From a phage: 64,000 nt of DNA. Shown in pieces: positions 37,165-49,539 of the stretch. The notes below the pieces were generated by a model. That model was not told the origin of the DNA and made no database searches. It saw nothing but the letters and a program-made list of their open reading frames with translations. A program made the position numbers and the translations under genes. The DNA is taken from the sequence record PX092659.1; one strand, given 5' to 3'. Positions within the stretch are counted from its first letter, which is position 1, and every line of letters begins with the position of its first letter.

Positions 37165-37198
37165 ATTTTATTAACTGTAACTAAAACAAAGGAAATAT

Positions 37199-38146: not shown

Positions 38147-38170
38147 TACCCGCATGTAACATCTGAAATA

Positions 38171-38205: not shown

Positions 38206-38221
38206 GTATTTAAGATAAAAG

Positions 38222-38256: not shown

Positions 38257-38470
38257 GTTTGGTTCTTTAGAACCATATACTCTTGTTACAGCAACCACCC
38301 ATACGGGAGGCCAATCTTGACTGAAAATCTACTCTAGGGGGCAGGATAAGAGTAGGCTTAAAGGCAAACGGATTGAACGCCGGTATTTGTGTAAACATTG
38401 CTGGAGAGCAACAACGTGCTACAGGCATTGGGCAGCACGAAATAGATTTTCTGCAACACATAATTTCTCC

Positions 38471-38887
38471 TTAGGAGTTATTACCACCATTTTGAGCTTT
38501 TGCAACTTGGCTTTGGCAGAAGCTATTAAACTTACCCATAAGTGATACAAGCTGTTTCCCATCCTCTGTCTTTGCGAAGTCTTCGAAAAGGGCTAGTACT
38601 GCCTGTCCTTCCGCAGAAACCTGCGGTTGTTGGGTTTGTTGCTGAACTTGCTGCTGAGGCACCTGTTGCTGCATTTGTTGAGGCATTTGCGACTGCCCGC
38701 TCATTTGCTGCATCATTTGCATAGGACTCACACTTCCAGGGTTTTGCTGGAGTTGTTGCTGCATCTGTTGCGCTTCTGCTAAACGCTGTTGCAATTGTTG
38801 TAAGTAGGGGTTATCCAGACCCGGAATGGGCTGCTGGGAGCCCATACTTTGATTAAGTCCGTTATTTACAAAACCATATTTACTCAT
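38471..38887 (-). CDS. hypothetical Gln-rich low-complexity protein
   Basis: 138 aa; about 35 percent Gln (QQLQQRLAEAQQMQQQLQQ...); part of the inverted two-gene module. Confidence 0.5.
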   Translation of the reverse strand: MSKYGFVNNGLNQSMGSQQPIPGLDNPYLQQLQQRLAEAQQMQQQLQQNPGSVSPMQMMQQMSGQSQMPQQMQQQVPQQQVQQQTQQPQVSAEGQAVLALFEDFAKTEDGKQLVSLMGKFNSFCQSQVAKAQNGGNNS

Positions 38888-38908
38888 AATGGGCTCCTCC
38901 CCTTAATA

Positions 38909-39901: not shown

Positions 39902-39952
39902 CTCCTAGTATATAGAAAATGTGTGTCTCTTTGATCACTCATCCATAACATA

Positions 39953-39981
39953 TACTTTACACTACCCCAGCGAAAATGTCA
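39953..39981 (-). promoter_or_regulatory. second promoter class (minus): TTGACATTTTCGC-type
   Basis: Reverse complement reads TTGACA ttttcgctggggtagtg TAAAGT; shares the 13-nt TTGACATTTTCGC with 9576-9604. Confidence 0.55.
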
Positions 39982-40098
39982 AGGGGTCTTTAAAAATTGC
40001 CCCTGAATTTTTAGTGGGGTCACAAATTTTGGTCCTCACCATTTATCTGCTATCCTTAAGTGCCCTATGATTTTCCTCTAAAAAGTTAAAAAATTTGA

Positions 40099-40127
40099 TT
40101 GCTTGAATGCTAAATTCTCTGTATAAT
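40099..40127 (+). promoter_or_regulatory. sigma70-type early promoter: TTGCTT-N17-TATAAT
   Basis: Cassette match. Confidence 0.6.
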
Positions 40128-40157
40128 ATATCTATAAATTTGAAAGAGGAACCAAAT

Positions 40158-40676
40158 ATGAATGTTGATGAGCTAACACAGCACCTCTTATCTAGAGGAT
40201 TTGATACAGATAAATATCATTGCTGGTTAAGTCCGGAAGGATGGCTAACAGTCCCGTTGTATGACTTCTCTGGGATGTTGAGGGGCTATCAAACTTATAA
40301 TCCTTCTGCTCCAAAAGGTCATGGTAAGTGCCCCTTTGAAGCTAAATACTTTACTTATTCTACTACCCAGTGTGTATGGGGACTAGAAACTCTCAATGGA
40401 GATGAAAAAGTAGTATTGATTGCTGAATCTGTATTTAAGGCAGTTGCGTTACATAATGCTGGTTATCCAGCCCTAGCAATGTTGGGTTCTTCTCCAGGAA
40501 AAGCGTTATTAAAGCAACTGAAATTACTACCTTTTAAATTGGTAGCTGTCGGAGATAATGATCCTGCGGGTGAAAAATTTGCTAGAAAATTAAACGGCTT
40601 TGTTTCTCCCGTAGATGTGGATGAGATGTCTACCGAAAACTTGAAAAATTTTCTTGCTATGAAGCTAAATTTCTAA
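40158..40676 (+). CDS. small TOPRIM-domain-like protein
   Basis: ATG 40158 after GAAAGAGGAAC RBS (track ORF extends to 40107); TOPRIM-like Glu (LIAESVFK) and DxD (AVGDNDPAG). Confidence 0.45.
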   Translation: MNVDELTQHLLSRGFDTDKYHCWLSPEGWLTVPLYDFSGMLRGYQTYNPSAPKGHGKCPFEAKYFTYSTTQCVWGLETLNGDEKVVLIAESVFKAVALHNAGYPALAMLGSSPGKALLKQLKLLPFKLVAVGDNDPAGEKFARKLNGFVSPVDVDEMSTENLKNFLAMKLNF

Positions 40677-40682
40677 TATAAT
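40654..40682 (+). promoter_or_regulatory. sigma70-type early promoter: TTGCTA-N17-TATAAT (inside 3' end of previous ORF)
   Basis: Cassette match; would drive the tRNA-Ser/tRNA-Met pair. Confidence 0.55.
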
Positions 40683-40697
40683 ATATCTTATAAATTC

Positions 40698-40786
40698 GGA
40701 AGAATAGCATAACGGTATTGCAGCAGATTGCTAATCTGTCGGCTTGAAATATAGCCTTGTGGGTTCGATTCCCACTTCTTCCGCCA
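40698..40786 (+). tRNA. tRNA-Ser (anticodon GCT), class II
   Basis: Acceptor GGAAGAA/TTCTTCC, anticodon loop TTGCTAA, long variable arm, T-arm GTGGG-TTCGATT-CCCAC, G73-CCA. Confidence 0.75.
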
Positions 40787-40792
40787 AACATA

Positions 40793-40867
40793 GGGTCGGT
40801 AGCTTAAAGTTAAAGCGGTGGCCTCATAAGCTAACGAGTAGGAGTTAGATTCTCCTCCGACCCACCA
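40793..40867 (+). tRNA. tRNA with CAT anticodon (Met, fMet or Ile2 type)
   Basis: Perfect acceptor GGGTCGG/CCGACCC, D-stem GCTT/AAGC, anticodon loop CTCATAA, T-arm AGGAG-TTAGATT-CTCCT. Confidence 0.7.
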
Positions 40868-40881
40868 ATTAGGTACTGCGT

Positions 40882-41283
40882 ATGGAAAAGGTTGAATTTG
40901 AGTACTTTGGAGTTATTTTAATTGTACACTTAAATGGTACAATAGAAACTAAAGATAGAATAATAACACAACGAAATCAATATGGCGAGTATACTAGAAC
41001 TATAAAAGGAAAGGTACTGTCTCCACGTTGCAATGGTAAATCTGGGTATTTTCAGGTGAAGATTTGCAATAAGGGATTAGGTAAAAATGAGTATGTGCAC
41101 AGACTCGTATGGATGGCTTTCAACGGTGAAATACCGGAAGGCTATGAAATAGAGCACAAAGATGATGATAAGTCTAATAATGCTTTACCTAACCTAGAAT
41201 TATTCACAAGAAAGCAGAATATGGACAAAGTCTTAAATAAGATGACTAGAGATTCTCTAGGTCGTTTTGAAAAACTTAACTAG
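40882..41283 (+). CDS. HNH homing endonuclease (divergent copy) inside tRNA cluster
   Basis: 133 aa; HRLVWMAFNGEIPEGYEIEHKDDDKSNNALPNLELFTRKQN. Confidence 0.6.
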   Translation: MEKVEFEYFGVILIVHLNGTIETKDRIITQRNQYGEYTRTIKGKVLSPRCNGKSGYFQVKICNKGLGKNEYVHRLVWMAFNGEIPEGYEIEHKDDDKSNNALPNLELFTRKQNMDKVLNKMTRDSLGRFEKLN

Positions 41284-41291
41284 GAGACTAT

Positions 41292-41477
41292 ATGTCTAAG
41301 TTTCAAGAACTCAAGCAAGAGCTAGAAGAATGTGCCTGCCCTGAGTGTAGAGGAATTGGTGAAAGTTCTGATGCAGAAGCAGGAGATACTTTTTGCAATA
41401 TCTGGGTTTGCCCAACTTGCAATGGTACAGGTATTAATCCTAACTGCGGTATTTCCCTAGATATTGAGCGAGGATAA
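41292..41477 (+). CDS. hypothetical small Cys-rich protein (two CxxC pairs)
   Basis: 61 aa; CACPECRG ... CPTCNG. Confidence 0.45.
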   Translation: MSKFQELKQELEECACPECRGIGESSDAEAGDTFCNIWVCPTCNGTGINPNCGISLDIERG

Positions 41478-41578
41478 TACCTGTGAAACTAAAAGATTAT
41501 TATATTGGTTGGTTTGTGGGACTAGTAGTAGTATTTTCACTAGGCTATAATATGTATCAACTAATAAACTGATTACAT

Positions 41579-41655
41579 GGGGGTGTAATCGAATTGGCAT
41601 AGGTACTGGACTTAAAATTCAGGTTTTGTGGGTTCGAATCCCACCACCCCTACCA
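41579..41655 (+). tRNA. tRNA with TAA anticodon (Leu-type anticodon) but short variable arm
   Basis: Acceptor GGGGGTG/CACCCCT, anticodon stem CTGGA/TTCAG with loop CTTAAAA, 5-nt variable region, T-arm GTGGG-TTCGAAT-CCCAC, A73-CCA. Confidence 0.6.
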
Positions 41656-41830
41656 AATTAAGGAAATAAGATGTATAGACATCCACCTCCGCCAACACGT
41701 CGTTCCAGAGAAGTTATCCTCATGGAGTTGACTAAAAACTTCAAGGCAACTCTTGAAGATAGAGATTTAGGCACGGATGAAGACATTGATTTTATTTGTA
41801 GACTATTAAAGATGAAACTGGAGAAACAAC

Positions 41831-42037
41831 ATGGCTAATCCTGAAATTACCGCACAACGTTTCATGCTTAAAGGCATGATTGCTGAAGCAGGTATGACTC
41901 AAGAGGTTGCAGACTTTCATAAGCAATTTCTTGATATTATAACTCTAGCTAAAGAGACTGGAGAAAAAGAACACGGAGCAGCAATTATGGCTATATCTCT
42001 TATTAGTCTAGACTTGGCTGAAGAATCTGGAGTTTAG
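41831..42037 (+). CDS. hypothetical protein
   Basis: 68-aa track ORF; a 56-aa ORF at about 41671-41841 precedes it. Confidence 0.45.
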   Translation: MANPEITAQRFMLKGMIAEAGMTQEVADFHKQFLDIITLAKETGEKEHGAAIMAISLISLDLAEESGV

Positions 42038-42067
42038 CTCCTCCAAACAGAATTTTTAAAAATGTAC

Positions 42068-42097
42068 TTGCCTTTTGCTTTAAATTTCTGATATAAT
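42068..42097 (+). promoter_or_regulatory. sigma70-type promoter (TTGCCT-N18-TATAAT)
   Basis: Cassette-like with 18-nt spacer. Confidence 0.45.
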
Positions 42098-42127
42098 AGT
42101 TATATAAATTGATGAAGGAGTTAACGA

Positions 42128-42403
42128 ATGCAAAATCGTGTTATAGCAGCTGGTATTGAAAGTGCAATCTGTAAATCCTGGGAAGGCTGGGAAGGTGAGA
42201 TTGAATGGCTTTATTTCTATGATGTAGAACTTCTGCCGGAAGTTAAAGCTAAATGTGTTGAAGCTGGCATGGCTCCAGATGCAAAAGCTGATATTGATAT
42301 TTCAATGTCTGAACTTAAAGGTCGTGTAATTACTGTTAGTGATGAGGGCGAAGAAGTCTTCGAACTTCCATTCTCCTTAATTGTCACTCCTAAGTTCGAC
42401 TAA
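42128..42403 (+). CDS. hypothetical protein
   Basis: 91-aa track ORF after GAAGGAG RBS. Confidence 0.5.
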   Translation: MQNRVIAAGIESAICKSWEGWEGEIEWLYFYDVELLPEVKAKCVEAGMAPDAKADIDISMSELKGRVITVSDEGEEVFELPFSLIVTPKFD

Positions 42404-42439
42404 CTAATACAGCACTGAGCAAGTTCTTTAAAATTTGAC

Positions 42440-42468
42440 TTGCTCAGTGCTATAAAACTTGATATAAT
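42440..42468 (+). promoter_or_regulatory. sigma70-type early promoter: TTGCTC-N17-TATAAT
   Basis: Cassette match; drives the RNA-only unit 42496-42938. Confidence 0.55.
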
Positions 42469-42495
42469 AGTTATCTAATTTGGAAAGTTCTTTTT

Positions 42496-42589
42496 AAGGT
42501 AGTTCCTACTTTAGTAGAGTAAATTTTTGGCAGATGGCCCCACCATTTTACCGATAACTCCTAGTCAGTGCGGCAACACTGGCTACCTT
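42496..42589 (+). ncRNA. candidate tRNA-sized structured RNA (non-canonical, no consensus T-loop)
   Basis: Terminal 7-bp helix AAGGTAG/CTACCTT encloses three hairpins (CTAC-ttta-GTAG; ATGG-cccca-CCAT; CAGTG-cggcaa-CACTG); lies between promoter and tRNA-Tyr. Confidence 0.3.
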
Positions 42590-42600
42590 AAAGAGAATTT

Positions 42601-42687
42601 GGGCGTTTATTCCGTAAGTGGTAGCGGAGGGGATTGTAAATCCCTGGTCATTGCGACTCGAGTGGTTCGACTCCATTAACGCCCACC
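42601..42687 (+). tRNA. tRNA-Tyr (anticodon GTA), class II
   Basis: Acceptor GGGCGTT/AACGCCC, anticodon loop TTGTAAA, long variable arm, A73-CCA. Confidence 0.75.
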
Positions 42688-42695
42688 AAATTTAA

Positions 42696-42772
42696 GTCCT
42701 GTTAGACAAACGGGTAAAGTCACTACCCTTTCAAGGTAGGATTTGCGGGTTCGATCCCCGCACAGGACGCCA
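42696..42772 (+). tRNA. tRNA-Glu (anticodon TTC)
   Basis: Acceptor GTCCTGT/ACAGGAC, anticodon stem CTACC/GGTAG with loop CTTTCAA, T-arm GCGGG-TTCGATC-CCCGC. Confidence 0.8.
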
Positions 42773-42780
42773 ATTTCTGC

Positions 42781-42857
42781 ATTCCTAGAGTGTTACTGGA
42801 CAGCATGTCGGTCTCCAAAACCGTACGGTCTAGGTTCGAGTCCTAGTAGGTTTGCCA
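42781..42857 (+). tRNA. tRNA-Trp (anticodon CCA), two U-U mismatches in acceptor stem
   Basis: Anticodon loop CTCCAAA on stem CGGT/ACCG; T-arm CTAGG-TTCGAGT-CCTAG; acceptor ATTCCTA/TAGGTTT pairs at 5 of 7 positions. Confidence 0.55.
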
Positions 42858-42863
42858 AAATTT

Positions 42864-42938
42864 GCACCTTTAGCTGAGATGGATTAGCGCTTGCCTGAAG
42901 AGCTTGAGAGGTTCGTTCGATACGAACAGGGTGCACCA
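42864..42938 (+). tRNA. tRNA-Phe (anticodon GAA)
   Basis: Acceptor GCACCTT/AGGGTGC, D-stem GCTG/TAGC, anticodon loop CTGAAGA, T-arm GTTCG-TTCGATA-CGAAC. Confidence 0.65.
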
Positions 42939-42955
42939 AATTGAAGGAGCTGCTG

Positions 42956-43228
42956 ATGCATCCTGAAAACTTCTTTATTTACTGCGCGGATAAGTCGCTG
43001 AAACGTAGAATTAACAAAGTCTATCATTATCGTGCTAGTCAACAGCCTTATGTATATGCTTTTGACGGTGATCACATTCCACTAGAACAATTATCTTGTG
43101 ATTACATGATATTGAAGAACTTTGACGAGACGAAGATCTCAAGCGTTCATAATCGACAGAATCCCTTAACGTGGAAATATAAGAAGAAAAAGAAAGGCAT
43201 CAAATTCTTAAAAAATGTAGTTGCTTAG
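42956..43228 (+). CDS. hypothetical protein
   Basis: ATG 42956 after GAAGGAG (track ORF starts at TTG 42941). Confidence 0.45.
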   Translation: MHPENFFIYCADKSLKRRINKVYHYRASQQPYVYAFDGDHIPLEQLSCDYMILKNFDETKISSVHNRQNPLTWKYKKKKKGIKFLKNVVA

Positions 43229-43249
43229 TTTCTAAAAGTTCTGTATAAT
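43221..43249 (+). promoter_or_regulatory. sigma70-type early promoter: TTGCTT-N17-TATAAT (within 3' end of previous ORF)
   Basis: Cassette match. Confidence 0.55.
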
Positions 43250-43297
43250 AATTACATAAATTGAACTGGAGAAGCAACATGACAGAACAAGATAAAC

Positions 43298-43373
43298 CGA
43301 CCGTTGGCTGAATGGCTTAGGCGAAGGATTGCAAATCCTTTTTATGTGAGTTCAAATCTCATGCGGTCGTCCA
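43298..43373 (+). tRNA. tRNA-Cys (anticodon GCA)
   Basis: Acceptor CGACCGT/GCGGTCG, anticodon stem AAGGA/TCCTT with loop TTGCAAA, T-arm GTGAG-TTCAAAT-CTCAT. Confidence 0.7.
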
Positions 43374-43380
43374 AATTTTA

Positions 43381-43463
43381 GGGTCGTTAGCCAAGCGGTT
43401 TGGCGGCGGATTGTTAATCCGTGTCGAAAGACAACGTAGGTTCGAATCCTACACGGCCCGCCA
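43381..43463 (+). tRNA. class II-shaped tRNA with GTT (Asn-type) anticodon and G73
   Basis: Acceptor GGGTCGT/ACGGCCC, D-stem GCCA/TGGC, anticodon stem GCGGA/TCCGT with loop TTGTTAA, 13-nt variable arm with GTC/GAC stem, T-arm GTAGG-TTCGAAT-CCTAC. Confidence 0.55.
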
Positions 43464-43565
43464 AATTCTGTGTAGAGTTAAGTAAACCGGTAGCCAACCA
43501 GCTATCATTGCTGACATCGAATTCAGCCACAGATACCATTTTCATTAATAACTGAGGAAACAAGC

Positions 43566-43751
43566 ATGTCCAAGAATGTAATTGCGCAGCTAGAAGTTCA
43601 TCGTGATAGCACTATTAACAATATTGAAGTTGAAAAGAAATACATCGAAGAACTTAAACACGATATACTAGTAAGTCTCAATCGTCTTAATGTACGAAAA
43701 GAGTTTCTTAAAGAACTTAATGCAGCTATTGAAAAACTCAAAGCTGAGTAA
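43566..43751 (+). CDS. hypothetical protein
   Basis: 61-aa track ORF after GAGGAAACAAGC RBS. Confidence 0.45.
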   Translation: MSKNVIAQLEVHRDSTINNIEVEKKYIEELKHDILVSLNRLNVRKEFLKELNAAIEKLKAE

Positions 43752-43760
43752 ATGAATTAT

Positions 43761-43837
43761 GCGACCGGGGCTGGCTTGGTAATGGTACTCCCCTGTCACG
43801 GGAGAGAATGTGGGTTCGAATCCCATCGGTCGCGCCA
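43761..43837 (+). tRNA. tRNA-Asp (anticodon GTC)
   Basis: Acceptor GCGACCG/CGGTCGC, anticodon stem CTCCC/GGGAG with loop CTGTCAC, T-arm TGGG-TTCGAAT-CCCA. Confidence 0.8.
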
Positions 43838-44013
43838 AATAAGGTAGGTTAGCTATGGAATGTAGGGAGTTTACTCCAGAAGAGATAGAGCAGATAAAAG
43901 AATCTGCTATGAAAAATGCTAGAATATCTCTGTCACTGGAAGGTATCATTATTAGTGATGTAAACTTTGAAAAAATCAAAGCCATAGCTGATGAACTGGA
44001 AAAGTAATTTAAT

Positions 44014-44089
44014 ACATCCATAGCTCAATGGTTAGAGCTACCGCCTCTTAAGCGGAGGGTTCTAGGTTCAAGTCCTAGTGGGTGTACCA
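44014..44089 (+). tRNA. tRNA-Lys (anticodon CTT)
   Basis: Acceptor ACATCCA/TGGGTGT, D-arm GCTCAATGGTTAGAGC, anticodon loop CTCTTAA, T-arm CTAGG-TTCAAGT-CCTAG. Confidence 0.65.
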
Positions 44090-44114
44090 AATTAATTTAG
44101 TATGAGAATATACT

Positions 44115-44462
44115 ATGCGTAATGCTAAAGAAGAGCTGTTACTCGCCTTAAAAAATACCAATTCTAAAGTTAAGTGTATTAAAATAGAATTTGGGTATTA
44201 TGGGGACAAAAAAGTCTGGGTATTACCTTTAGGTTATACAGAAGAAGACATTGAGGGGTTTCTTAATAACCTAGACTTTGAATATGATTCTGGATACGGT
44301 GGACAATTACTTTATGGTAATGTATGGTTTGCCGATGGAACTTGGCTAGAACGTGGGGAATATGATGGTGCTGAGTGGTGGGAATACAAGGCTACACCAG
44401 CAATCCCAGAGGAATGCCGAACAATTAATGGTGAAGTAGATAATACTTTACGGTTAAACTAA
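44115..44462 (+). CDS. hypothetical protein
   Basis: 115-aa track ORF. Confidence 0.5.
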   Translation: MRNAKEELLLALKNTNSKVKCIKIEFGYYGDKKVWVLPLGYTEEDIEGFLNNLDFEYDSGYGGQLLYGNVWFADGTWLERGEYDGAEWWEYKATPAIPEECRTINGEVDNTLRLN

Positions 44463-44855
44463 TAAAATTTCAGTGCAGAACACGGAGCTAGCAATTCGGA
44501 AGTGCTGACTCATGATAAGCTGCCTATGTACTTGCAAAGCGGTCGTGTCCAAGACTCGGACTCTTGCACTGAAAACAATCAAACATTCTAGCGTGGTTGA
44601 TGGGGAAACCAGCTTGGCTAGGGCAGAAGCTCGTTCGATTCGAGTGAAAGAATGGTTCTCGTAAGTCCGCACAAGTGATAGCAGGTTCGAGTCCTGTCTA
44701 GAATGATACTATAAAGTTTACTTATTGAGTAGGTTCCGATAGATCGGCGGGTCTATTCTGGCAGTTAAGAGAGGTCTCGCAAACTTCTTTGTCAGCCGTG
44801 GGGTTGGTAGCCTCCAGGTGGCCTACACAATAAGTAAATTTATTAAAAATTCATT

Positions 44856-44884
44856 TGCTATTTCGCTTAATTCTCGGTATAATA
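44856..44884 (+). promoter_or_regulatory. sigma70-type early promoter: TTGCTA-N17-TATAAT
   Basis: Cassette match (coordinates here may be off by 1 nt). Confidence 0.55.
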
Positions 44885-44915
44885 TATCTTATAAAGTGTT
44901 GAGAAGGAAAGCAAA

Positions 44916-45113
44916 ATGAAAAAAGTTTTACTGCTGTCTGTATTCCTACTTACTGGTTGTTTTAAACTTGACTCAACCATTAATAAAGAGTATGAATTTG
45001 CTAAAAATTTCTGTGGCGGAGAGAGTAATATAAAGAATTTCTACATATATAGTACAATTCCTAGTACCGTTTATTGTGTAGACGGACGAATTATTAATAT
45101 TCCTCCACAATAA
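44916..45113 (+). CDS. small lipoprotein (signal peptide with lipobox LLTGC)
   Basis: 65 aa; MKKVLLLSVFLLTGC then mature Cys; AAGGAAAGC RBS. Confidence 0.55.
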   Translation: MKKVLLLSVFLLTGCFKLDSTINKEYEFAKNFCGGESNIKNFYIYSTIPSTVYCVDGRIINIPPQ

Positions 45114-45122
45114 AAGAATTAA

Positions 45123-45198
45123 CAGTGCGTAGCGCAGTTGGTAGCGTGGGAGCCTTGGATGCTTCGGGTCGCAGGTTCGAGTCCTGCCGCACTGACCA
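45123..45198 (+). tRNA. tRNA-Pro (anticodon TGG)
   Basis: Acceptor CAGTGCG/CGCACTG, D-arm GCGCAGTTGGTAGCGT, anticodon stem GGAGC/GCTTC with loop CTTGGAT, T-arm GCAGG-TTCGAGT-CCTGC. Confidence 0.75.
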
Positions 45199-45204
45199 AA
45201 CAAT

Positions 45205-45282
45205 TGCGGGTTAGATCTCTGGTAGAGATCGCTAGTCTCATAAGCTAGAAAGAGGTAGGTTCGATTCCTGCACCCGCTTCCA
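45205..45282 (+). tRNA. tRNA with CAT anticodon (Met/Ile2 type), 1-72 mismatch
   Basis: Anticodon stem CTAGT/GCTAG with loop CTCATAA; T-arm GTAGG-TTCGATT-CCTGC; acceptor TGCGGGT/ACCCGCT has a U-U at position 1-72. Confidence 0.6.
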
Positions 45283-45471
45283 TTTTAATAGAGGGTTTCG
45301 AAATGAAAGTATTTCGATTAGTAGTAAGTGACAAACGTTTAGGTAAGAATACCTCAAAATCCTTACTTGCTCATTATGGAAAAGATGAGAAAGAAGTAAT
45401 GGCGGAGTTTGGGATTAATCACCCTTACTTGAAAGTTCACTCTATTAAAGAAGTATATAATGGTTACTAAT

Positions 45472-45550
45472 AGATCGCTAGCTCAATAGGTTTAGTAGCA
45501 TCCGACTTTTAATCGGAAGGTTCTGGGTTCGAGTCCCAGGCGATCTACCA
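45472..45550 (+). tRNA. tRNA-Lys (anticodon TTT)
   Basis: Perfect acceptor AGATCGC/GCGATCT, anticodon stem TCCGA/TCGGA with loop CTTTTAA, T-arm CTGGG-TTCGAGT-CCCAG. Confidence 0.8.
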
Positions 45551-45568
45551 ATTTCAAGAAAAACGCAG

Positions 45569-45597
45569 TTGCTTAATGCGTAATTTCTTGTTACAAT
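45569..45597 (+). promoter_or_regulatory. sigma70-type early promoter: TTGCTT-N17-TACAAT
   Basis: Cassette variant; followed by about 235 nt of ORF-free leader before tRNA-Ala. Confidence 0.55.
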
Positions 45598-45835
45598 ATT
45601 TATATAAATTGATGAGGAGAAATCCTCGTCATAGTTCACTAAGGTATTAGCTCGACCTAGGACTGGCTGCCAAAAAGCACGATCCCTACGATTCGGGAGA
45701 AGTTCTAGATTAGTCCACTAGATTCAGCGGCAACTGAATAGTGTATCGGGTTTGCGAGATGACGCGGTTCCTTCCGCTCGAAGCGAAGGTGCTGTAGTTA
45801 CGCCGAGCTAATAGCCTTAGTAAACTAAAGAATTT

Positions 45836-45910
45836 GGGCGAATAGTGTCAGCGGGAGCACACCAGACTTGCAATCTGGTAGGGAGGGTTCGAGTCCCTCT
45901 TTGTCCACCA
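45836..45910 (+). tRNA. tRNA-Ala (anticodon TGC)
   Basis: Acceptor GGGCGAA/TTTGTCC with G3-U70 wobble (Ala identity pair), anticodon stem CCAGA/TCTGG with loop CTTGCAA, T-arm GAGGG-TTCGAGT-CCCTC. Confidence 0.8.
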
Positions 45911-45915
45911 AATAC

Positions 45916-45992
45916 GCGTGATTGATGGAATTGGCATACATACCGTCCTTAGAAGTCGGGTTTTGAGGGTTCGAATCCCTTGTCACGCACCA
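45916..45992 (+). tRNA. tRNA with TAG anticodon (Leu-type anticodon) but short variable arm
   Basis: Acceptor GCGTGAT/GTCACGC, anticodon loop CTTAGAA on stem CCGTC/GTCGG (one mismatch), 5-nt variable region, T-arm GAGGG-TTCGAAT-CCCTT, A73. Confidence 0.55.
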
Positions 45993-46104
45993 AATTTGAT
46001 GGTCAGAGTAAATTAAACCTACTATCTCGGTTGAGCTGTTTTAATGGGTTCGAATCCCAGCGAGGCGTAACTGCCTGGCGTGATAGAGGCATCATCTTAT
46101 TACT

Positions 46105-46195
46105 GGAAGAGCAAATCGAATTGGCGACGAAAACCGCTTGGAAAGTGGCTGACTGGTAAAACGGCTTGAGAGTTCAAATCTCTCCTCTTCCGCCA
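46105..46195 (+). tRNA. tRNA-Ser (anticodon GGA), class II
   Basis: Acceptor GGAAGAG/CTCTTCC, anticodon loop TTGGAAA on 4-bp stem, long variable arm, T-arm GAGAG-TTCAAAT-CTCTC, G73-CCA. Confidence 0.6.
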
Positions 46196-46214
46196 AACAC
46201 TTGAGGTAATAATA

Positions 46215-46562
46215 ATGTTAGCAAAAGATAAAGCTCTAGAGTTTTTAGCATCTTTAGATGAAGATAAGATTATAGATGCTGCTGAAAAAGCTGGAATGCC
46301 CGATTTAACATATCTGGAACGTGCTATTATTGCTCGTGATAAACTACAGAAAGAGTTTGCTATTGCCCAGGAGGAGTTTTATACTCGCTATAACGCTCTT
46401 ACTAAGCAAATTGAAAATGAGTGTTCCCATACTTGGGGAGTAACAGAAAACCTAGGTAATGATCACGATGGCTGGTCTAAAGTAAAAATTACCTACTATC
46501 ATCGTAGGACTTGTAAAATTTGTGGAAAAGTAGAAGATTTCACTAGTACGAGTGACTATTAG
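46215..46562 (+). CDS. hypothetical protein
   Basis: 115-aa track ORF after GAGGTAATAATA RBS. Confidence 0.5.
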   Translation: MLAKDKALEFLASLDEDKIIDAAEKAGMPDLTYLERAIIARDKLQKEFAIAQEEFYTRYNALTKQIENECSHTWGVTENLGNDHDGWSKVKITYYHRRTCKICGKVEDFTSTSDY

Positions 46563-46575
46563 TATAATAAATACT

Positions 46576-46665
46576 AGAAGATAGGACGTAGTGGTACGTA
46601 ACTGGTCTTGAAAACCAGCCCGCTGTAGCGATACGGTGATGGTTCGACTCCATTATCTTCTGCCA
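46576..46665 (+). tRNA. tRNA-Ser (anticodon TGA), class II
   Basis: Acceptor AGAAGAT/ATCTTCT, anticodon stem CTGGT/ACCAG with loop CTTGAAA, long variable arm, T-arm GATGG-TTCGACT-CCATT, G73-CCA. Confidence 0.75.
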
Positions 46666-47228
46666 ATTAACTATAAGGAAGTCTTATGAGCAAAACAGTT
46701 ACTGTAACAATGAAGGACGGTAAAAAATTTAAAGCATGTCTTCATGAAACAGATAAGGGGTGGATGGCTTATTTGCCACACCTAGATTCCACCGGGTACG
46801 GAATGACCCAACGTGAAGCTATTGTTGATGCTTTAAATGAGGCTTCTGCTGGTTTATAAAAAATTCTTGAAGTATGCCGGAATCGGTAGACGGGGCTGCC
46901 TAAAAGGTTTATAGGGAACATCCACTCCCTGCAACATACCTCATAAAGCGGCTGAGATAAATGGTCTATCTCGTGAAGGTTCAAGTCCTTCTGCTTCTTG
47001 ATACATCTATGGCTCAAAGTGTAACGGTGCTATTTGATGCTCTTGGTAAGACTTCCCCGACATGCGTTCGGGAGTAAGCTGCTAAGACTAGAGTAGAAGA
47101 GTTTCTGAGAGCCGCCACAATTGAAAATTCGTACTCGTCTTGAGCTGCGTGCAATAGGAGATAACTTGATTAGTATTCTAGAACATGCTAATTGAGGATG
47201 GTTTCGCTAACCCTGCGAGTTTTCAATT

Positions 47229-47305
47229 GTGGCTATATCATAATTGGTTAATGATCCTGATTGTGAATCAGGCCTATGTGGATTCGAATTCCACTAGCCA
47301 CCCCA
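47229..47305 (+). tRNA. tRNA-His (anticodon GTG)
   Basis: Acceptor GTGGCTA/TAGCCAC, C73, anticodon stem CCTGA/TCAGG with loop TTGTGAA, T-arm GTGGA-TTCGAAT-TCCAC. Confidence 0.8.
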
Positions 47306-47330
47306 AATTAACTTAAATAGGAAATAAAAT

Positions 47331-47528
47331 ATGGCTGATTTCTGCAAACAATGCTCCATTGATATGTGGGGCAGAGATACTGGTGATCTTTCTGGTTTGA
47401 TTACAGAAGCTGAGGTCAAAGAAGGTTATGGTGCAGTTGTGATTTGCGAAGGATGCGGAGTTATTCGAGTAGATCATGAAGGCAAACGTTTAAAAGAACC
47501 GGAAAACTTAGGAGAAACAAATGAGTAA
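47331..47528 (+). CDS. hypothetical small Cys-containing protein
   Basis: 65-aa track ORF; CKQC ... CEGCG. Confidence 0.45.
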   Translation: MADFCKQCSIDMWGRDTGDLSGLITEAEVKEGYGAVVICEGCGVIRVDHEGKRLKEPENLGETNE

Positions 47529-47757
47529 TGCTTTAATTAGTGAAATTATGTTAACACGTCTTGCAGAACTGCAAACTCTTCGAGATGAATCTCAGAATAA
47601 CTTAGCCTATCATAAACAGATGGTAGATACTCTTACTACTCGTATTGAAACTTACGAGCGTGATATTGCAGCATTACAGGCTCTTTTCTCAGTATCAGCA
47701 CCAGATACTTTAGAGCAGCCTGTTGTATCTCAGCCAGTAGAAACAGCATCTAGTTAA
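47521..47757 (+). CDS. hypothetical protein
   Basis: 78-aa track ORF, start overlaps upstream stop. Confidence 0.45.
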   Translation: MSNALISEIMLTRLAELQTLRDESQNNLAYHKQMVDTLTTRIETYERDIAALQALFSVSAPDTLEQPVVSQPVETASS

Positions 47758-47766
47758 TAGCATTTT

Positions 47767-47842
47767 TGGAGTGTAGATCAATTGGCAGATCGTCGGCCTC
47801 TGACTCCGAAGGTTCCTGGTTCGATCCCAGGCACTCCAGCCA
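47767..47842 (+). tRNA. tRNA-Gln (anticodon CTG)
   Basis: Acceptor TGGAGTG/CACTCCA, D-stem GATC/GATC, anticodon loop CTCTGAC, T-arm CCTGG-TTCGATC-CCAGG. Confidence 0.75.
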
Positions 47843-47848
47843 AATAAT

Positions 47849-47924
47849 TGGAGAGTAGTGTAACGGTTAGCACAACGGCCTTTGACTCCGTTAATGGTAG
47901 GTTCGATTCCTCCTTCTCCAGCCA
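47849..47924 (+). tRNA. tRNA-Gln (anticodon TTG)
   Basis: Acceptor TGGAGAG/TTCTCCA, anticodon loop CTTTGAC; near-duplicate of the adjacent Gln(CTG) gene. Confidence 0.7.
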
Positions 47925-47932
47925 AGTAATAA

Positions 47933-48008
47933 GCGGTTAAGCACACGGGTTGTGTCGCAGGCCTTCCAAGCCTCGCTGAGTAGGGTTCGATTCCCTCTAG
48001 CCGCTCCA
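47933..48008 (+). tRNA. tRNA-Gly (anticodon TCC)
   Basis: Acceptor GCGGTTA/TAGCCGC, anticodon stem AGGC/GCCT with loop CTTCCAA, T-arm AGGG-TTCGATT-CCCT. Confidence 0.65.
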
Positions 48009-48024
48009 ACTTTAAGGAAACGTT

Positions 48025-48276
48025 ATGCACGTTTTTGAGTTTCGTAATAAAAGTACCGATAAACGAGTTATTGTTATTGGAGAAACATACCGAGCATACG
48101 AACAAACTGACGGCTCTGTCATCCTGAATGATGAGAAAGGAGGTTTTAGCTTTTATCCAGAAGAACCTTATGAAGAGTTTCGAAAACAATTTAACCTAGA
48201 CTGGAGAAAGCATTTAAACACTGTTGCTTCATCTGTAGTATTGCCAACTACCAGTACTGTACTATCTAATGGCTGA
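48025..48276 (+). CDS. hypothetical protein
   Basis: 83-aa track ORF; a 52-aa ORF follows at about 48271-48432. Confidence 0.45.
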   Translation: MHVFEFRNKSTDKRVIVIGETYRAYEQTDGSVILNDEKGGFSFYPEEPYEEFRKQFNLDWRKHLNTVASSVVLPTTSTVLSNG

Positions 48277-48443
48277 TAACCTAAAAGTCAAGATCGACAA
48301 ACAAAAGAAACGTGTAGAAGTAGAGATTGGTGAAGAACGTGTAGCCTTCACCTTTGAATTCCTACAACAAATGGCAATGGTAGTTATGACTGATAAGTCT
48401 CCTGTTATTGAAAAAGAAATCCCGTTGAAATAACGGGATCATC

Positions 48444-48518
48444 GCTCCTAAAGCATTGCTGGCGATGCAGTTGCCTTGTAAGCATCTGAACCGGGTTCGA
48501 TTCCTGGTGGGAGCACCA
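48444..48518 (+). tRNA. tRNA-Thr (anticodon TGT)
   Basis: Acceptor GCTCCTA/TGGGAGC, D-arm GCATTGCTGGCGATGC, anticodon loop CTTGTAA, T-arm CCGGG-TTCGATT-CCTGG. Confidence 0.75.
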
Positions 48519-48533
48519 AATTTAAAAATTCAT

Positions 48534-48562
48534 TTGCTTTCTCTCTTATTTATTGTTATAAT
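48534..48562 (+). promoter_or_regulatory. sigma70-type early promoter: TTGCTT-N17-TATAAT
   Basis: Cassette match. Confidence 0.6.
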
Positions 48563-48592
48563 ATTTATATAAATTAATGAGAGGGAAACCAA

Positions 48593-48883
48593 ATGAAACG
48601 TTATCTTTCTGTTGTGTTCCAAACTGGTGGTCAACGCTATACCTATGAATTTCCTAGCTCTTGGAAGATCAAAGAAGGTGATCAAGTAGTAGTGTTAACA
48701 CCGCGAGATGGATATAAAGTAGTAACGGTTAAACAAGTATTCCCAAAAGATCATGAACCAGCTAAAGGCATTCGCTATAAGATGATTCATGGTGTGGTTC
48801 GTCAAGTACCACGAACTGAGGTAGAAGTAGATAAGACTGGAGAAGCTAAATTCCGTTATACTTCTTACCTAGATAGTGTGTGA
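48593..48883 (+). CDS. hypothetical protein
   Basis: 96-aa track ORF after GAGAGGGAAACC RBS. Confidence 0.5.
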   Translation: MKRYLSVVFQTGGQRYTYEFPSSWKIKEGDQVVVLTPRDGYKVVTVKQVFPKDHEPAKGIRYKMIHGVVRQVPRTEVEVDKTGEAKFRYTSYLDSV

Positions 48884-48898
48884 TGTAAATATTTTAAT

Positions 48899-48975
48899 GC
48901 TTCGGTAGCTTAGCGATCTAAAGCACTCGGCTGATAACCGAGAGATCGGGGGTTTAAATCCCTCCCGGAGTACCA
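48899..48975 (+). tRNA. tRNA-Ile (anticodon GAT)
   Basis: Acceptor GCTTCGG/CCGGAGT, D-stem GCTT/AAGC, perfect anticodon stem CTCGG/CCGAG with loop CTGATAA, T-arm GGGGG-TTTAAAT-CCCTC. Confidence 0.75.
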
Positions 48976-49071
48976 AATTTAGGAATTAAGACTATGCGTC
49001 CAGGAAAGTTTAAAAAAGCTAGTTGGTCTAAAGAGTATAAAGAATACTTACTTAGTCTAATAAAACATAAT

Positions 49072-49147
49072 AGTTAGTTGGCAGAGTGGTTATGCACCTC
49101 CTTCATACGGAGCGACTACAGTGGTTCAAATCCACTACTAACTACCA
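49072..49147 (+). tRNA. tRNA with CAT anticodon (Met/fMet/Ile2 type)
   Basis: Perfect acceptor AGTTAGT/ACTAACT, anticodon stem CTCC/GGAG with loop TTCATAC, T-arm AGTGG-TTCAAAT-CCACT. Confidence 0.7.
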
Positions 49148-49170
49148 AATTCTAACATCGGGGAGATCTA

Positions 49171-49539
49171 ATGAAAGCATATCAAAACCTTAAATCTGGC
49201 GTAATTAACCTTGTTCATGAAAATCAGATTATTCAGCTATACTCCGACAACGGTGAACTTAAACAGAAAGTTCTAGTTGAAGATCTAGAAGGTATCACAC
49301 CACAATTCGATCCTGAATCCTTCCGTGAAGTTAAGGTGGAAGTCGCCCCTCAAATCGAAGGTGGTCAGCACCTAAATGTCAATGTATTAAGCCGTGATCA
49401 GCTTTTGGATGCACAGAAACATCCTGAAAAATATCCTCAGTTGACCATCCGTGTCTCTGGCTACGCTGTTCGATTTAATGCACTGACTCGTGAACAACAG
49501 AACGACGTTATTAGTCGTACATTTACTCAGGCGATGTAA
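49171..49539 (+). CDS. autonomous glycyl-radical cofactor-like protein (GrcA/YfiD-like)
   Basis: 122 aa; C-terminal glycyl-radical signature [19 protein letters not shown], the PFL/GrcA-type motif rather than the NrdD-type. Confidence 0.65.

What the first reader, a model, noticed from the sequence alone, without database searches (positions are those of the whole stretch)
46860..47228. 370-nt ORF-free region upstream of tRNA-His with multiple hairpins
No ORF of 60 aa or more; contains a T-arm-like GAAGG-TTCAAGT-CCTTC (about 46977-46993), hairpins GAGATA/TATCTC and CCCGA-catgcgt-TCGGG, but no complete tRNA. It may be a processed precursor segment or ncRNA.
Basis: seen in the sequence. Interest (0 to 1): 0.35.

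Follow-up and report, generated by a model that had tools for sequence, protein, structure and literature searches.

The report
Known phage T5 stable RNA genes
The "empty" 370 bases upstream of tRNA-His are three small stable RNA genes (rna1, rnaI, rnaIII) already annotated in bacteriophage T5; their job is still unknown, but comparison across related phages shows that one is a tRNA look-alike with a conserved extra arm and another is a swappable insert held in a conserved 20-base-pair stem.

Summary
The window is a T5-like phage (98.9% to Escherichia phage fp01). Interval 46860-47228 matches three genes annotated in the T5 RefSeq, BF23 and phage 5 records:
- rna1, "tRNA-like stable RNA", 46866-47010
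- rnaI, 47011-47117
- rnaIII, 47122-47227, directly followed by tRNA-His

The existence of these genes is therefore already known. Their function is listed as unknown.

New comparative points:
1. **RNA1** is a complete class-II cloverleaf. Its anticodon loop is replaced by a 48-nt two-helix extension capped by an invariant ACAUCCAC loop. Covariation is strong: 95% of cells paired, 14 of 36 pairs compensatory, across 30 variants from three genera. The apparent "anticodon" is not conserved, so it is a tRNA mimic and not a decoder.
2. **RNA I** is a rod with tRNA-type ends (G1, 3' GCCA). Its interior exists in two unrelated versions.
3. **RNA III** is exchangeable cargo, with at least five unrelated versions. 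All are enclosed by a 19-21 bp duplex that pairs RNA I's 3' GCCAC with the first five bases of tRNA-His. The annotated ends leave a 2-nt 3' overhang, which suggests RNase III excision (inferred).

The block lies inside a viable T5 deletion. Interest is low to moderate.

The parts
46866..47010 (+). rna1 homologue (RNA1, 'tRNA-like stable RNA with unknown functions')
   Evidence: 97.9% identity over 145 nt to the annotated rna1 of phage 5. The same feature is annotated in T5 RefSeq and BF23.
46868..46999 (+). tRNA-like core of RNA1. Acceptor stem 46868-46874/46992-46998 (first pair U.U), discriminator U at 46999, no CCA encoded. D arm 46877-46893. Anticodon stem 46895-46899/46948-46952. Long variable arm 46954-46972. 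T arm 46975-46991.
   Evidence: ARAGORN -i. The MFE structure is this cloverleaf. Covariation on 30 distinct sequences: 95.1% of cells paired against 40-50% for slid controls, 14 of 36 pairs compensatory.
46900..46947 (+). 48-nt extension that replaces the anticodon loop. A-rich internal loop; helix 46905-46908/46938-46941; helix 46912-46917/46926-46931; apical loop ACAUCCAC at 46918-46925, invariant except for one A/G difference in the T5 RefSeq copy.
   Evidence: Helix 4 has 2 of 4 pairs and helix 5 has 4 of 6 pairs with compensatory changes. Columns 49-56 and 58-60 are invariant in Tequinta-, Epseptima- and Sugarlandvirus.
47011..47117 (+). rnaI homologue (RNA I, 107 nt). Rod-like fold with a 5' GGCUC / 3' GAGCC terminal stem and a single-stranded 3' G-CCA.
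   Evidence: 93.5% identity to the annotated rnaI. Fold. The termini are constant while the interior is swapped in Sepoy/phiR2-01-type phages.
47118..47121 (+). 4-nt spacer CAAU between the encoded CCA of RNA I and the 5' end of RNA III
   Evidence: Gap between the annotated features.
47122..47227 (+). rnaIII homologue (RNA III, 106 nt). 13-bp terminal stem, a 12-bp hairpin and two smaller arms, with a 2-nt 3' overhang.
   Evidence: 98.1% identity to the annotated rnaIII of phage 5 and 100% to T5. Fold z = -2.90.
47114..47133 (+). 5' arm of the 20-bp precursor duplex (GCCACAAUUGAAAAUUCGUA). It includes the discriminator and CCA of RNA I.
   Evidence: Inverted repeat I1/I4. 20 contiguous pairs in the MFE structure of the precursor. 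The duplex is kept at 19-21 bp around five unrelated cargos, with 9 of 20 pairs compensatory.
47214..47233 (+). 3' arm of the precursor duplex (UGCGAGUUUUCAAUUGUGGC). It includes the first five bases of tRNA-His.
   Evidence: Same as for the 5' arm.
47228..47305 (+). tRNA-His(GUG) with encoded CCA. The curated records start it at U-1 (47228); ARAGORN and Rfam start it at G+1 (47229).

Best explanation
**Shown**
- The interval holds three small-RNA genes of the T5-type tRNA cluster: rna1, rnaI and rnaIII. They sit head to tail between a 57-aa ORF and tRNA-His.
- RNA1 is a class-II (long variable arm, Leu-like) tRNA scaffold. Its 7-nt anticodon loop is replaced by a 48-nt two-helix extension supported by covariation and capped by an invariant ACAUCCAC loop.
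- No anticodon is conserved in RNA1, no CCA is encoded, the first acceptor pair is U.U and the discriminator is U.
- RNA I is a rod whose ends look like a tRNA acceptor end (G+1, U-1 leader, 3' G-CCA).
- RNA III lies inside a 20-bp duplex that pairs the 3' GCCAC of RNA I with the 5' GUGGC of tRNA-His.
- Related phages carry at least five unrelated RNA III bodies and two unrelated RNA I interiors. The termini and the 19-21 bp duplex are kept in all of them.

**Inferred**
- All three RNAs are cut out of one polycistronic precursor by host tRNA-processing enzymes.
- RNase P makes the 5' end of RNA I. Exonucleases trim RNA I back to its CCA.
- A staggered, RNase III-type cut in the duplex frees RNA III with a 2-nt 3' overhang. 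The same cut sets or exposes the 5' end of tRNA-His.
- RNA III is therefore mainly the stable by-product of a processing module.
- RNA1 is a non-decoding tRNA mimic. It most likely works by occupying or recruiting a tRNA-binding factor and presenting its invariant loop, for example as a decoy for a tRNA-directed host enzyme.
- The confidence value covers identity, anatomy and processing taken together. Taken alone, the trans-acting role of RNA1 is about 0.25-0.3.
For: **Identity**
- annotated misc_RNA features in NC_005859.1, NC_042564.1, AJ604531.1 and NC_047749.1.

**RNA1 structure**
- ARAGORN -i finds the cloverleaf, and the MFE structure is that cloverleaf.
- 95.1% of cells are paired against 40-50% for slid controls. 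14 of 36 pairs are compensatory, with 0 of 500 shuffles as high. RNAalifold finds 13 compensatory pairs.
- The anticodon call is inconsistent across variants: Phe-aaa at two different sites, Leu-taa and Val-aac.
- RNA1 occurs without RNA I, RNA III or tRNA-His next to it in Klebsiella Sugarlandvirus phages.
- It is found in 493 phage records and in no bacterial genome.

**RNA I**
- The termini are constant and the interior is swapped.

**Duplex**
-.
- 97.9% of cells paired and 9 of 20 pairs compensatory across five cargo types.
- The annotated ends of RNA III (47122 pairs with 47225; the RNA ends at 47227) give a 2-nt 3' overhang.

**Conservation and coding**
- RNA III type A is 96-100% conserved, like tRNA-His. 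The flanking ORFs are 85-95% conserved.
- No ORF in the interval is conserved.

**Analogue**
- T4 rnaC and rnaD sit in the T4 tRNA cluster, and rnaC also folds as a tRNA-like RNA with a long arm.
Against: - Ends come from GenBank features whose experimental basis I could not read; the 1980s papers are not in the library.
- RNase III, RNase P and exonuclease involvement is inferred from geometry only. An RNase E cut 1-4 nt after the CCA plus RNase P at tRNA-His could give nearly the same ends.
- The 96-100% conservation of RNA III type A is more than a pure by-product needs.
- RNA I has only one compensatory pair.
- The arms used were selected because they pair, so that count is biased upward.
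- T5 strain 123, which lacks 29191-32442, forms plaques. That range covers rna1, rnaI and rnaIII at 30284-30644 of NC_005859.1, assuming the paper's numbering is close to that record.
- The cloned fragments of that deletion other than the tRNA-Lys fragment did not rescue infection against PARIS (PMC11464382).
- No function has therefore been seen in laboratory conditions, and no partner of the ACAUCCAC loop was found.
Confidence: 0.6

Rival explanations
1. RNA I and RNA III (and perhaps RNA1) have no trans-acting function. They would be decayed tRNA genes and spacers of the tRNA operon that accumulate only because they are compactly folded and have tRNA-like ends.
For: - The RNA III body and the RNA I interior are swapped for unrelated sequences in related phages. 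One phage (L141) has only a 42-nt hairpin in place of RNA III.
- The block lies in a non-essential deletion.
- Some phages lack RNA1 (DT571/2), RNA I or RNA III.
- T4 RNAC and RNAD still have no known role after decades (PMC3014915).
Against: - RNA1 keeps all seven helices through compensatory changes and an invariant 8-nt loop across three genera. A pseudogene would not do this.
- RNA III type A is as conserved as tRNA-His and more conserved than the neighbouring ORFs.
- The duplex length is held at 19-21 bp in five cargo types.
Confidence: 0.25
2. RNA1 is a genuine intron-containing tRNA (Leu-UAA in T5-type phages). The ~40-nt insert would be removed to give a decoding tRNA.
For: - ARAGORN -i calls it a tRNA with a 40-41-nt intron. 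JLBYU40 annotates it as tRNA-Leu(taa).
- In T5-type variants the 3' side of the insert reads CUUAAAA next to the anticodon stem.
- T5 has no other annotated tRNA-Leu(UAA), whereas this window has one at 41579-41655.
Against: - The called anticodon and the 'intron' position change between clades: aaa on the 5' side, aaa on the 3' side, taa, and aac. In this window no 7-nt loop with U33 remains on the 3' side.
- The insert is far too short for a group I intron, and Rfam finds none.
- The two internal loops are not a bulge-helix-bulge motif.
- The insert is itself under structural selection with an invariant loop.
- Discriminator U and the U1.U72 mismatch do not fit Leu identity (A73, from general knowledge). 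No CCA is encoded.
Confidence: 0.06
3. The inverted repeat around RNA III is a DNA-level feature rather than an RNA processing signal. It could be the terminal inverted repeats of a small mobile cassette, or a recombination or homing-endonuclease hotspot.
For: - Cargo is swapped between constant flanks, which carry the palindrome CAATTG in both arms.
- The T5 tRNA region is full of HNH homing endonuclease genes: hegA to hegD in T5 and hegB in phage 5.
- Inverted DNA repeats also stay complementary.
Against: - The arms include functional RNA ends (the CCA of RNA I and +1 to +5 of tRNA-His).
- G.U pairs are tolerated. That fits RNA pairing and not DNA pairing.
- The helix length, not the sequence, is what is conserved.
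- The annotated RNA ends fall inside the duplex with a 2-nt stagger.
Confidence: 0.08
4. The interval encodes small proteins, as many automatic annotations claim ('hypothetical protein').
For: - CDSs are annotated over the interval in several records.
- Mechanical ORFs of 38-82 aa exist.
Against: - The ORFs differ in strand, frame and length between homologues and are absent in some.
- The substitutions are compensatory for RNA helices.
- The curated records call these features RNAs.
Confidence: 0.02

Closest known systems
Bacteriophage T5 / BF23 / phage 5 genes rna1, rnaI, rnaIII (T5s03, T5s02, T5s01 in NC_005859.1)
   Same: Same genes. Identity to the phage 5 features is 93-98%; against T5 itself it is 86% (RNA1 core) to 100% (RNA III). 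Order and neighbours are the same: ORF trn2.14 - rna1 - rnaI - rnaIII - tRNA-His.
   Different: Allelic differences only. This window carries the 'fp01/phage 5' type of RNA1, whose anticodon-side loops differ from T5's.
Bacteriophage T4 species 1 and species 2 RNAs (rnaC 139 nt, rnaD 119 nt)
   Same: - Small stable RNAs of unknown function inside a phage tRNA cluster, next to a tRNA (PMC3014915, PMC9697503).
- rnaC folds with a T arm, a long second arm and a much extended 'anticodon' arm, like RNA1.
- From memory only, not checked here: T4 species 1 RNA is a classical in vitro RNase III substrate (Paddock et al. 1976).
   Different: No sequence similarity. The phage family differs (Straboviridae, not Demerecviridae). 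The order relative to the tRNA differs.
T5 RNA2 (T5s06, 'tRNA-like stable RNA'; window 44584-44706)
   Same: A second tRNA-like RNA in the same cluster, with an insertion of about 48 nt in the anticodon arm (ARAGORN -i).
   Different: The scaffold is different (short variable arm). The insert is unrelated; its hairpin loop reads UUCGAUU, not ACAUCCAC.
Canonical bacterial tRNA-Leu (class II tRNA, Rfam RF00005)
   Same: Acceptor, D, variable and T arms are present, with U8, A14, G18G19, A21 and GGUUCAAGUCC in place. The D loop GGAAUCGGUAGAC resembles E. coli tRNA-Leu (that resemblance is from memory).
   Different: There is no 7-nt anticodon loop and no conserved anticodon. The first pair is U1.U72, the discriminator is U and no CCA is encoded. 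The Rfam score of 25.2 is below the gathering score of 29.
RNase III processing stems of rRNA operons and phage T7 early transcripts
   Same: A helix of about 20 bp formed by sequences flanking an excised RNA. The annotated ends are staggered by 2 nt.
   Different: Cleavage was not demonstrated here. The excised RNA is a small variable cargo, and one arm is part of a tRNA acceptor strand.

Membership tests
T5-type stable RNA genes rna1 / rnaI / rnaIII | Sequence homology to the annotated features | tested here: met
   97.9%, 93.5% and 98.1% identity over full length to AJ604531.1 features; 86-100% to T5.
T5-type stable RNA genes rna1 / rnaI / rnaIII | Synteny: between ORF trn2.14 and tRNA-His, in the order rna1-rnaI-rnaIII | tested here: met
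T5-type stable RNA genes rna1 / rnaI / rnaIII | Accumulation as stable RNAs in infected cells | not testable with these tools
   Stated only in the GenBank product names. The primary papers are not in the library.
Canonical tRNA (RF00005) | Cloverleaf with acceptor, D, anticodon and T arms | tested here: met
Canonical tRNA (RF00005) | 7-nt anticodon loop with U33 and a conserved anticodon | tested here: not met
   A 48-nt structured insert replaces it. Anticodon calls differ between variants.
Canonical tRNA (RF00005) | Rfam gathering score | tested here: not met
   25.2 bits against a gathering score of 29; not listed at gathering threshold.
Intron-containing bacterial tRNA (group I intron in the anticodon loop) | Group I intron core (P3-P8, usually more than 200 nt) | tested here: not met
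   The insert is 40-48 nt. There is no Rfam intron match at E<=10.
Archaeal/eukaryal-type tRNA intron | Bulge-helix-bulge motif at 37/38 and a consistent mature anticodon | tested here: not met
   Internal loops lie on both strands (5+6 and 3+6 nt). The 'intron' position shifts between clades.
tmRNA | tRNA-like domain plus tag reading frame | tested here: not met
   ARAGORN -m finds none. The only Rfam tmRNA matches in the scanned stretch are two 15-17-nt matches at about 10 bits, at 46045-46059 and 46168-46184; both lie upstream of the interval.
T4 rnaC / rnaD | Sequence homology | tested here: not met
   Only 7-nt chance matches.
T4 rnaC / rnaD | Small stable tRNA-like RNA within a phage tRNA cluster | tested here: met
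   This is a likeness in kind, not in descent.
RNase III substrate | About two turns of uninterrupted duplex | tested here: met
   20 bp here. In the other four cargo types the helices span 19-21 bp; two of them (L141, L137) are interrupted by a 1x1 internal loop.
RNase III substrate | Cleavage giving 2-nt 3' overhangs, dependent on rnc | not testable with these tools
   The annotated ends fit the geometry. No cleavage data are available.

The most novel reading that the evidence does not exclude
RNA1 would belong to a class of phage-encoded tRNA mimics in which the anticodon loop is replaced by a structured arm. T5 RNA2 would be another member, and T4 rnaC a likely analogue. In this reading RNA1 acts in trans: it is taken up by tRNA-handling proteins through its tRNA body, and its invariant ACAUCCAC loop traps, blocks or redirects a host factor. 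A tRNA-cleaving defence nuclease or a tRNA-modifying or tRNA-charging enzyme would be candidates. This would extend the 'phage tRNAs as counter-defence' idea shown for T5 tRNA-Lys against PARIS to non-decoding RNAs.

A second, narrower novel reading concerns the conserved duplex. It may let RNase III rather than RNase P set the 5' end of tRNA-His. That would leave the U-1 residue that the curated records include. RNase P would not be expected to keep it opposite C73.
Probability: 0.2. Interest if true: 0.75.

Novelty: already known. Interest (0 to 1): 0.3.

Why it matters
As a discovery it does not matter much. These genes have been in the T5, BF23 and phage 5 records for about twenty years, and by my recollection the RNAs were seen in the 1980s.

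It matters in three smaller ways:
1. Most of the ~500 T5-like genomes in GenBank leave this interval blank, call RNA1 a tRNA-Leu or tRNA-Ser, or place spurious 'hypothetical protein' CDSs on it. None of the three RNAs has an Rfam family.
2. The function of tRNA-cluster stable RNAs in T5 and T4 is an old open question. The comparative anatomy found here gives concrete mutational targets: the invariant loop, the covarying extension, the exchangeable cargo and the fixed-length duplex.
3. Phage tRNAs are now known to counter tRNA-cleaving defences, so a conserved non-decoding tRNA mimic is a reasonable candidate for the same arms race.

Tried and rejected
- **Rfam.** A scan at E<=10 over 45900-48100 and at gathering threshold over 36500-49500 gave only tRNA matches, with no family for any of the three RNAs.
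- **tmRNA.** The ARAGORN search found none.
- **Partner for the RNA1 loop.** The complement AGUGGAUGUUC has no match in the 64-kb window beyond chance: 22 matches against 15.4 +/- 4.1 expected. The GGAUG in RNA III varies to GGAAG in other phages, so I rejected an RNA1-RNA III kissing contact.
- **Similarity to T4 rnaC/rnaD.** None.
- **Wider distribution.**
  - One IMG/VR scan was wasted on a gap range that was too short. A generic T-arm pattern brought in mostly unrelated loci.
  - The corrected pattern found only T5-like contigs in IMG/VR and metagenomes. It found nothing in 185,579 bacterial and archaeal genomes.
- **Literature.** Five searches found no paper in the library that discusses T5 RNA I, RNA III or RNA1. 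Only T4 RNAC/RNAD statements and the T5 deletion-mutant data were found.
- **Coding potential.** Rejected.
- **Covariation in RNA I.** Too little variation to test the structure: one compensatory pair.
- **Not used.** I did not use the protein-search or structure-prediction tools, because nothing in the interval looks coding.
Full report
**What the window is.** The 721 bases around the finding match T5-like phages (Demerecviridae). The best match is 98.9% to Escherichia phage fp01, and 696 phage records match in all. The finding lies in the large tRNA gene cluster: ARAGORN finds 24 tRNAs between 37090 and 49147, and tRNA-His(GUG) starts right after the interval at 47229.

**The interval is already annotated.**
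- Three curated GenBank records from the group that studied the T5 tRNA region carry three misc_RNA features exactly here.
  - The records are AJ604531.1 (phage 5), NC_042564.1 (BF23) and the T5 RefSeq NC_005859.1. A fourth record, NC_047749.1 (DT571/2), carries rnaI and rnaIII but has no rna1.
  - The features are rna1 ("tRNA-like stable RNA with unknown functions"), rnaI and rnaIII ("stable RNA with unknown functions"). tRNA-His follows immediately.
- BLAST of the phage 5 features onto the window gives these coordinates:

| Feature | Window coordinates | Identity |
|---|---|---|
| RNA1 | 46866-47010 | 97.9% |
| RNA I | 47011-47117 | 93.5% |
| RNA III | 47122-47227 | 98.1% |
| tRNA-His | 47228-47305 | 100% |

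- T5 RefSeq lists eight such stable RNAs in the cluster, T5s01 to T5s08.
- Most other T5-like genomes leave the interval blank, call RNA1 a tRNA-Leu, or place "hypothetical protein" CDSs on it.
- None of the three RNAs has an Rfam family.

**Check of the observation.**
- The interval plus tRNA-His folds much better than shuffles, with z = -3.98 and 0 of 100 shuffles as good.
- "No ORF of 60 aa or more" is not strictly true. A minus-strand 82-aa TTG ORF (46769-47017) overlaps the interval. ORFs here change frame, strand and length between homologues and are absent in the Klebsiella phages. Nothing here is coding.
- "No complete tRNA" is wrong. See RNA1 below.

**RNA1.**
- *Fold.*
  - ARAGORN with intron search reports a complete tRNA at 46868-46999 with a 41-nt insertion in the anticodon loop.
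  - Rfam's tRNA model aligns end to end at 25.2 bits, below the threshold of 29.
  - The unconstrained MFE fold is this cloverleaf.
- *Alignment.* I collected 30 distinct RNA1 sequences (alignment A1). They come from Tequintavirus, Epseptimavirus and the Klebsiella-infecting Sugarlandvirus, drawn from GenBank and IMG/VR.
- *Covariation*. I wrote the structure as acceptor, D, anticodon stem, two extra helices, variable arm and T arm.
  - 95.1% of cells form standard pairs, against 40-50% when partners are slid by 1-3 columns.
  - 14 of 36 pairs show compensatory changes, and 0 of 500 column shuffles reach the observed values.
  - RNAalifold independently recovers the same helices, except that it draws an alternative D pairing.
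- *Tertiary landmarks.* U8, A14, G18G19, A21 and the T loop GGUUCAAGUCC are at canonical positions. The long variable arm makes it a class-II scaffold. The D loop GGAAUCGGUAGAC resembles tRNA-Leu (that resemblance is from my memory of E. coli tRNA-Leu).
- *The extension.* In place of the anticodon loop there are 48 nt (46900-46947), arranged as follows:
  - an A-rich internal loop;
  - a 4-bp helix with 2 compensatory pairs (AGGU/ACCU becomes GAGU/ACUC in L150);
  - a second internal loop;
  - a 5-6-bp helix with 4 compensatory pairs (for example AGGGA/UCCCU, CUAGGA/UCCUAG, GCAGA/UCUGC);
  - an 8-nt loop ACAUCCAC. With its closing GA/UC it is invariant, apart from one A/G difference in the T5 RefSeq copy.
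- *Not a decoder.*
  - The apparent anticodon is not conserved. ARAGORN calls Phe-aaa on the 5' side, Phe-aaa on the 3' side, Leu-taa or Val-aac, depending on the clade.
  - The first acceptor pair is a conserved U.U mismatch.
  - The discriminator is U, and no CCA is encoded.
- *Independent module.* In Sugarlandvirus RNA1 stands without RNA I, RNA III or tRNA-His beside it.
- *Distribution.* RNA1 occurs in 493 phage records. A specific pattern finds only T5-like contigs in IMG/VR and metagenomes, and nothing in 185,579 bacterial and archaeal genomes.
- *Conclusion.* RNA1 is a tRNA-derived mimic that does not decode and is under structural selection. It is neither a pseudogene nor an ordinary intron-containing tRNA.

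**RNA I.**
- The 107-nt RNA starts GGCUC and ends GAGCC-G-CCA. That is a 5-bp terminal stem followed by a discriminator and an encoded CCA, with U at -1. These are the features RNase P and the 3' trimming exonucleases use (general knowledge).
- The rest folds as an irregular rod topped by CCCGA-CAUGCGU-UCGGG.
- Variation is small. Only one pair is compensatory, so the interior structure is compatible with the data but not proven.
- Epseptimavirus-type phages (Sepoy, phiR2-01, L144, L156) keep the first 20 nt and about the last 23 nt (with one or two substitutions) but carry an unrelated interior of about 57 nt.

**RNA III and the duplex.**
- *Fold.* RNA III (type A, 106 nt) folds with a 13-bp terminal stem, a 12-bp hairpin and two small arms, z = -2.90.
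- *Precursor helix.*
  - In the precursor the terminal stem extends to 20 contiguous pairs: 47114-47133 with 47214-47233.
  - This pairs the discriminator, the CCA and the next base of RNA I (GCCAC) with the first five bases of tRNA-His (GUGGC).
- *Cargo variants*. Related phages carry at least five unrelated bodies at this position:
  - A, 106 nt;
  - B, about 63 nt, in S147 and phiR2-01;
  - C, in L166;
  - D, a bare 42-nt hairpin, in L141;
  - E, in L137.
- *Duplex conservation.*
  - Each body is enclosed by a duplex of 19-21 bp. The outer 11-12 bp are constant. The inner 8-10 bp differ in sequence but stay complementary.
  - On an alignment of the arms, 97.9% of cells pair and 9 of 20 pairs are compensatory. 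The arms were picked by a helix search, so this count is biased upward.
- *Overhang.* With the annotated ends, U47122 pairs with A47225 and the RNA ends at 47227. That leaves a 2-nt 3' overhang on both products, which is the signature of RNase III. This is an inference; no cleavage data were available.
- *Conserved element.* What is conserved is therefore a fixed-length stem between RNA I and tRNA-His. The cargo is exchangeable.
- *Unexplained.* Type A cargo is 96-100% identical among phages whose flanking ORFs are 85-95% identical. A pure by-product model does not explain this.

**Likely mechanism.** Shown: the anatomy and conservation described above. Inferred:
- The block is transcribed with its neighbours. 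The nearest annotated promoter upstream is P13b, at 45549-45614 in the window. A promoter-like site lies at 46539-46568.
- RNase P cuts at 47010/47011.
- An RNase III-type staggered cut at 47121/47122 and 47227/47228 frees RNA III.
- Exonucleases remove CAAU to expose the CCA of RNA I.
- The residual 6-bp pairing melts, so that tRNA-His can fold.
- The curated records start tRNA-His at U-1 (47228), and C73 cannot pair with U-1. It is therefore possible that the duplex exists to leave an extra 5' nucleotide, which RNase P would not be expected to keep. The feature boundaries for other tRNAs in those records are also longer than ARAGORN's, so this is weak evidence.
- An alternative route is an RNase E cut just after the CCA plus an RNase P cut at tRNA-His.

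**Function.**
- A viable T5 mutant (T5 123) lacks 29191-32442. That range contains rna1, rnaI and rnaIII at 30284-30644 of NC_005859.1, assuming similar numbering.
- Of the three cloned pieces of that deletion, only the one carrying tRNA-Lys rescued infection against PARIS (PMC11464382).
- The three RNAs are therefore dispensable in the laboratory and are not the PARIS suppressor.
- My best guess for RNA1 is a trans-acting tRNA mimic (decoy or adaptor) that uses its invariant loop, at about 0.25-0.3. For RNA III it is a processing module whose cargo may be neutral.
- I found no target for the loop: its complement is not enriched in the window. A candidate GGAUG in RNA III is not conserved.

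**Comparison with known systems.**
- The genes are members of the T5 rna1/rnaI/rnaIII set by homology and synteny.
- The closest analogues elsewhere are T4 RNAC and RNAD (species 1 and 2 RNAs).
  - They sit in the T4 tRNA cluster next to tRNA-Arg.
  - Their roles are also unknown (PMC3014915), and they are detected late in infection (PMC9697503).
  - rnaC folds as a tRNA-like RNA with a greatly extended arm, z = -4.57.
  - They share no sequence with the T5 RNAs.
- T5 RNA2 (window 44584-44706) is a second tRNA-like RNA with an insertion of about 48 nt in its anticodon arm.
- RNA1 fails the tests for a canonical tRNA (no anticodon loop; below the Rfam threshold), for group I or bulge-helix-bulge intron tRNAs, and for tmRNA.

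**Verdict.**
- The feature is already known and annotated in the type phage.
- The comparative details appear not to be recorded in the annotations or in the searchable literature. These are the covarying anticodon-arm extension with an invariant loop, and the exchangeable cargo within a fixed 20-bp stem that includes the 5' end of tRNA-His. They make an old question testable.
- Novelty: already known. Interest: 0.3.

Noticed in passing
window 46105-46195, 47933-48008, 36516-36587: Default ARAGORN misses tRNA-Ser(GGA) and tRNA-Gly(UCC). Both are found at a relaxed threshold and are 100% identical to annotated phage 5 tRNAs. Rfam also reports a weak tRNA (30.7 bits) at 36516-36587 that is absent from the ARAGORN list.
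   Followed up: partly
window 44584-44706: Homologue of T5 RNA2 ('tRNA-like stable RNA'). ARAGORN -i reads the T5 RNA2 copy (96.7% identical to this window stretch) as a tRNA with a 48-nt insertion in the anticodon arm. It is a second tRNA mimic of the same build as RNA1, with an unrelated insert whose hairpin loop reads UUCGAUU.
   Followed up: partly
window 45645-45816, 44729-44829, 43466-43538: Homologues of T5 RNA2H (172 nt, closed by a 15-nt terminal stem), RNA IV (inside inverted repeat 44714-44733/44822-44841) and RNA3 ('putative tRNA-like RNA'). All are annotated as function unknown in T5.
   Followed up: partly
window 42485-42502 / 42583-42600: An 18-nt inverted repeat (89% complementary, 80 nt between the arms) whose second arm ends exactly at position -1 of tRNA-Tyr (42601). 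It is another stem-closed element directly upstream of a tRNA. It is not annotated in T5, where this is the gap between promoter P14a and tRNA-Tyr.
   Followed up: no
window 45916-45992 and 41579-41655: tRNA-Leu(UAG) and tRNA-Leu(UAA) are only 77 nt long, with a short variable region. That is unusual for bacterial-type tRNA-Leu. T5 itself has no annotated tRNA-Leu(UAA).
   Followed up: no
L006, L132, L144, L156 (RNA I type B); L007, L132, L144 (RNA III type B); L166 (C); L141 (D); L137 (E): Cassette-like replacement of the interiors of RNA I and RNA III by unrelated sequences between constant ends. This suggests recombination at the conserved termini, in a region rich in HNH homing endonuclease genes.
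   Followed up: partly
window 46686-46859: The 57-aa ORF just upstream of RNA1 (ORF trn 2.14) is labelled 'HicB family protein' in one record (vB_EcoD-Elw). It is missing upstream of RNA1 in Epseptimavirus-type phages.
   Followed up: no
window 47228: Position -1 of tRNA-His is U in every homologue. E. coli tRNA-His has an encoded G-1 opposite C73 (general knowledge). The curated T5, BF23 and phage 5 records start the tRNA at this U.
   Followed up: partly
L151, L154: Two phages have A instead of G at the discriminator of RNA I (GAGAGCC-A-CCA). This removes the outermost pair of the precursor duplex.
   Followed up: no
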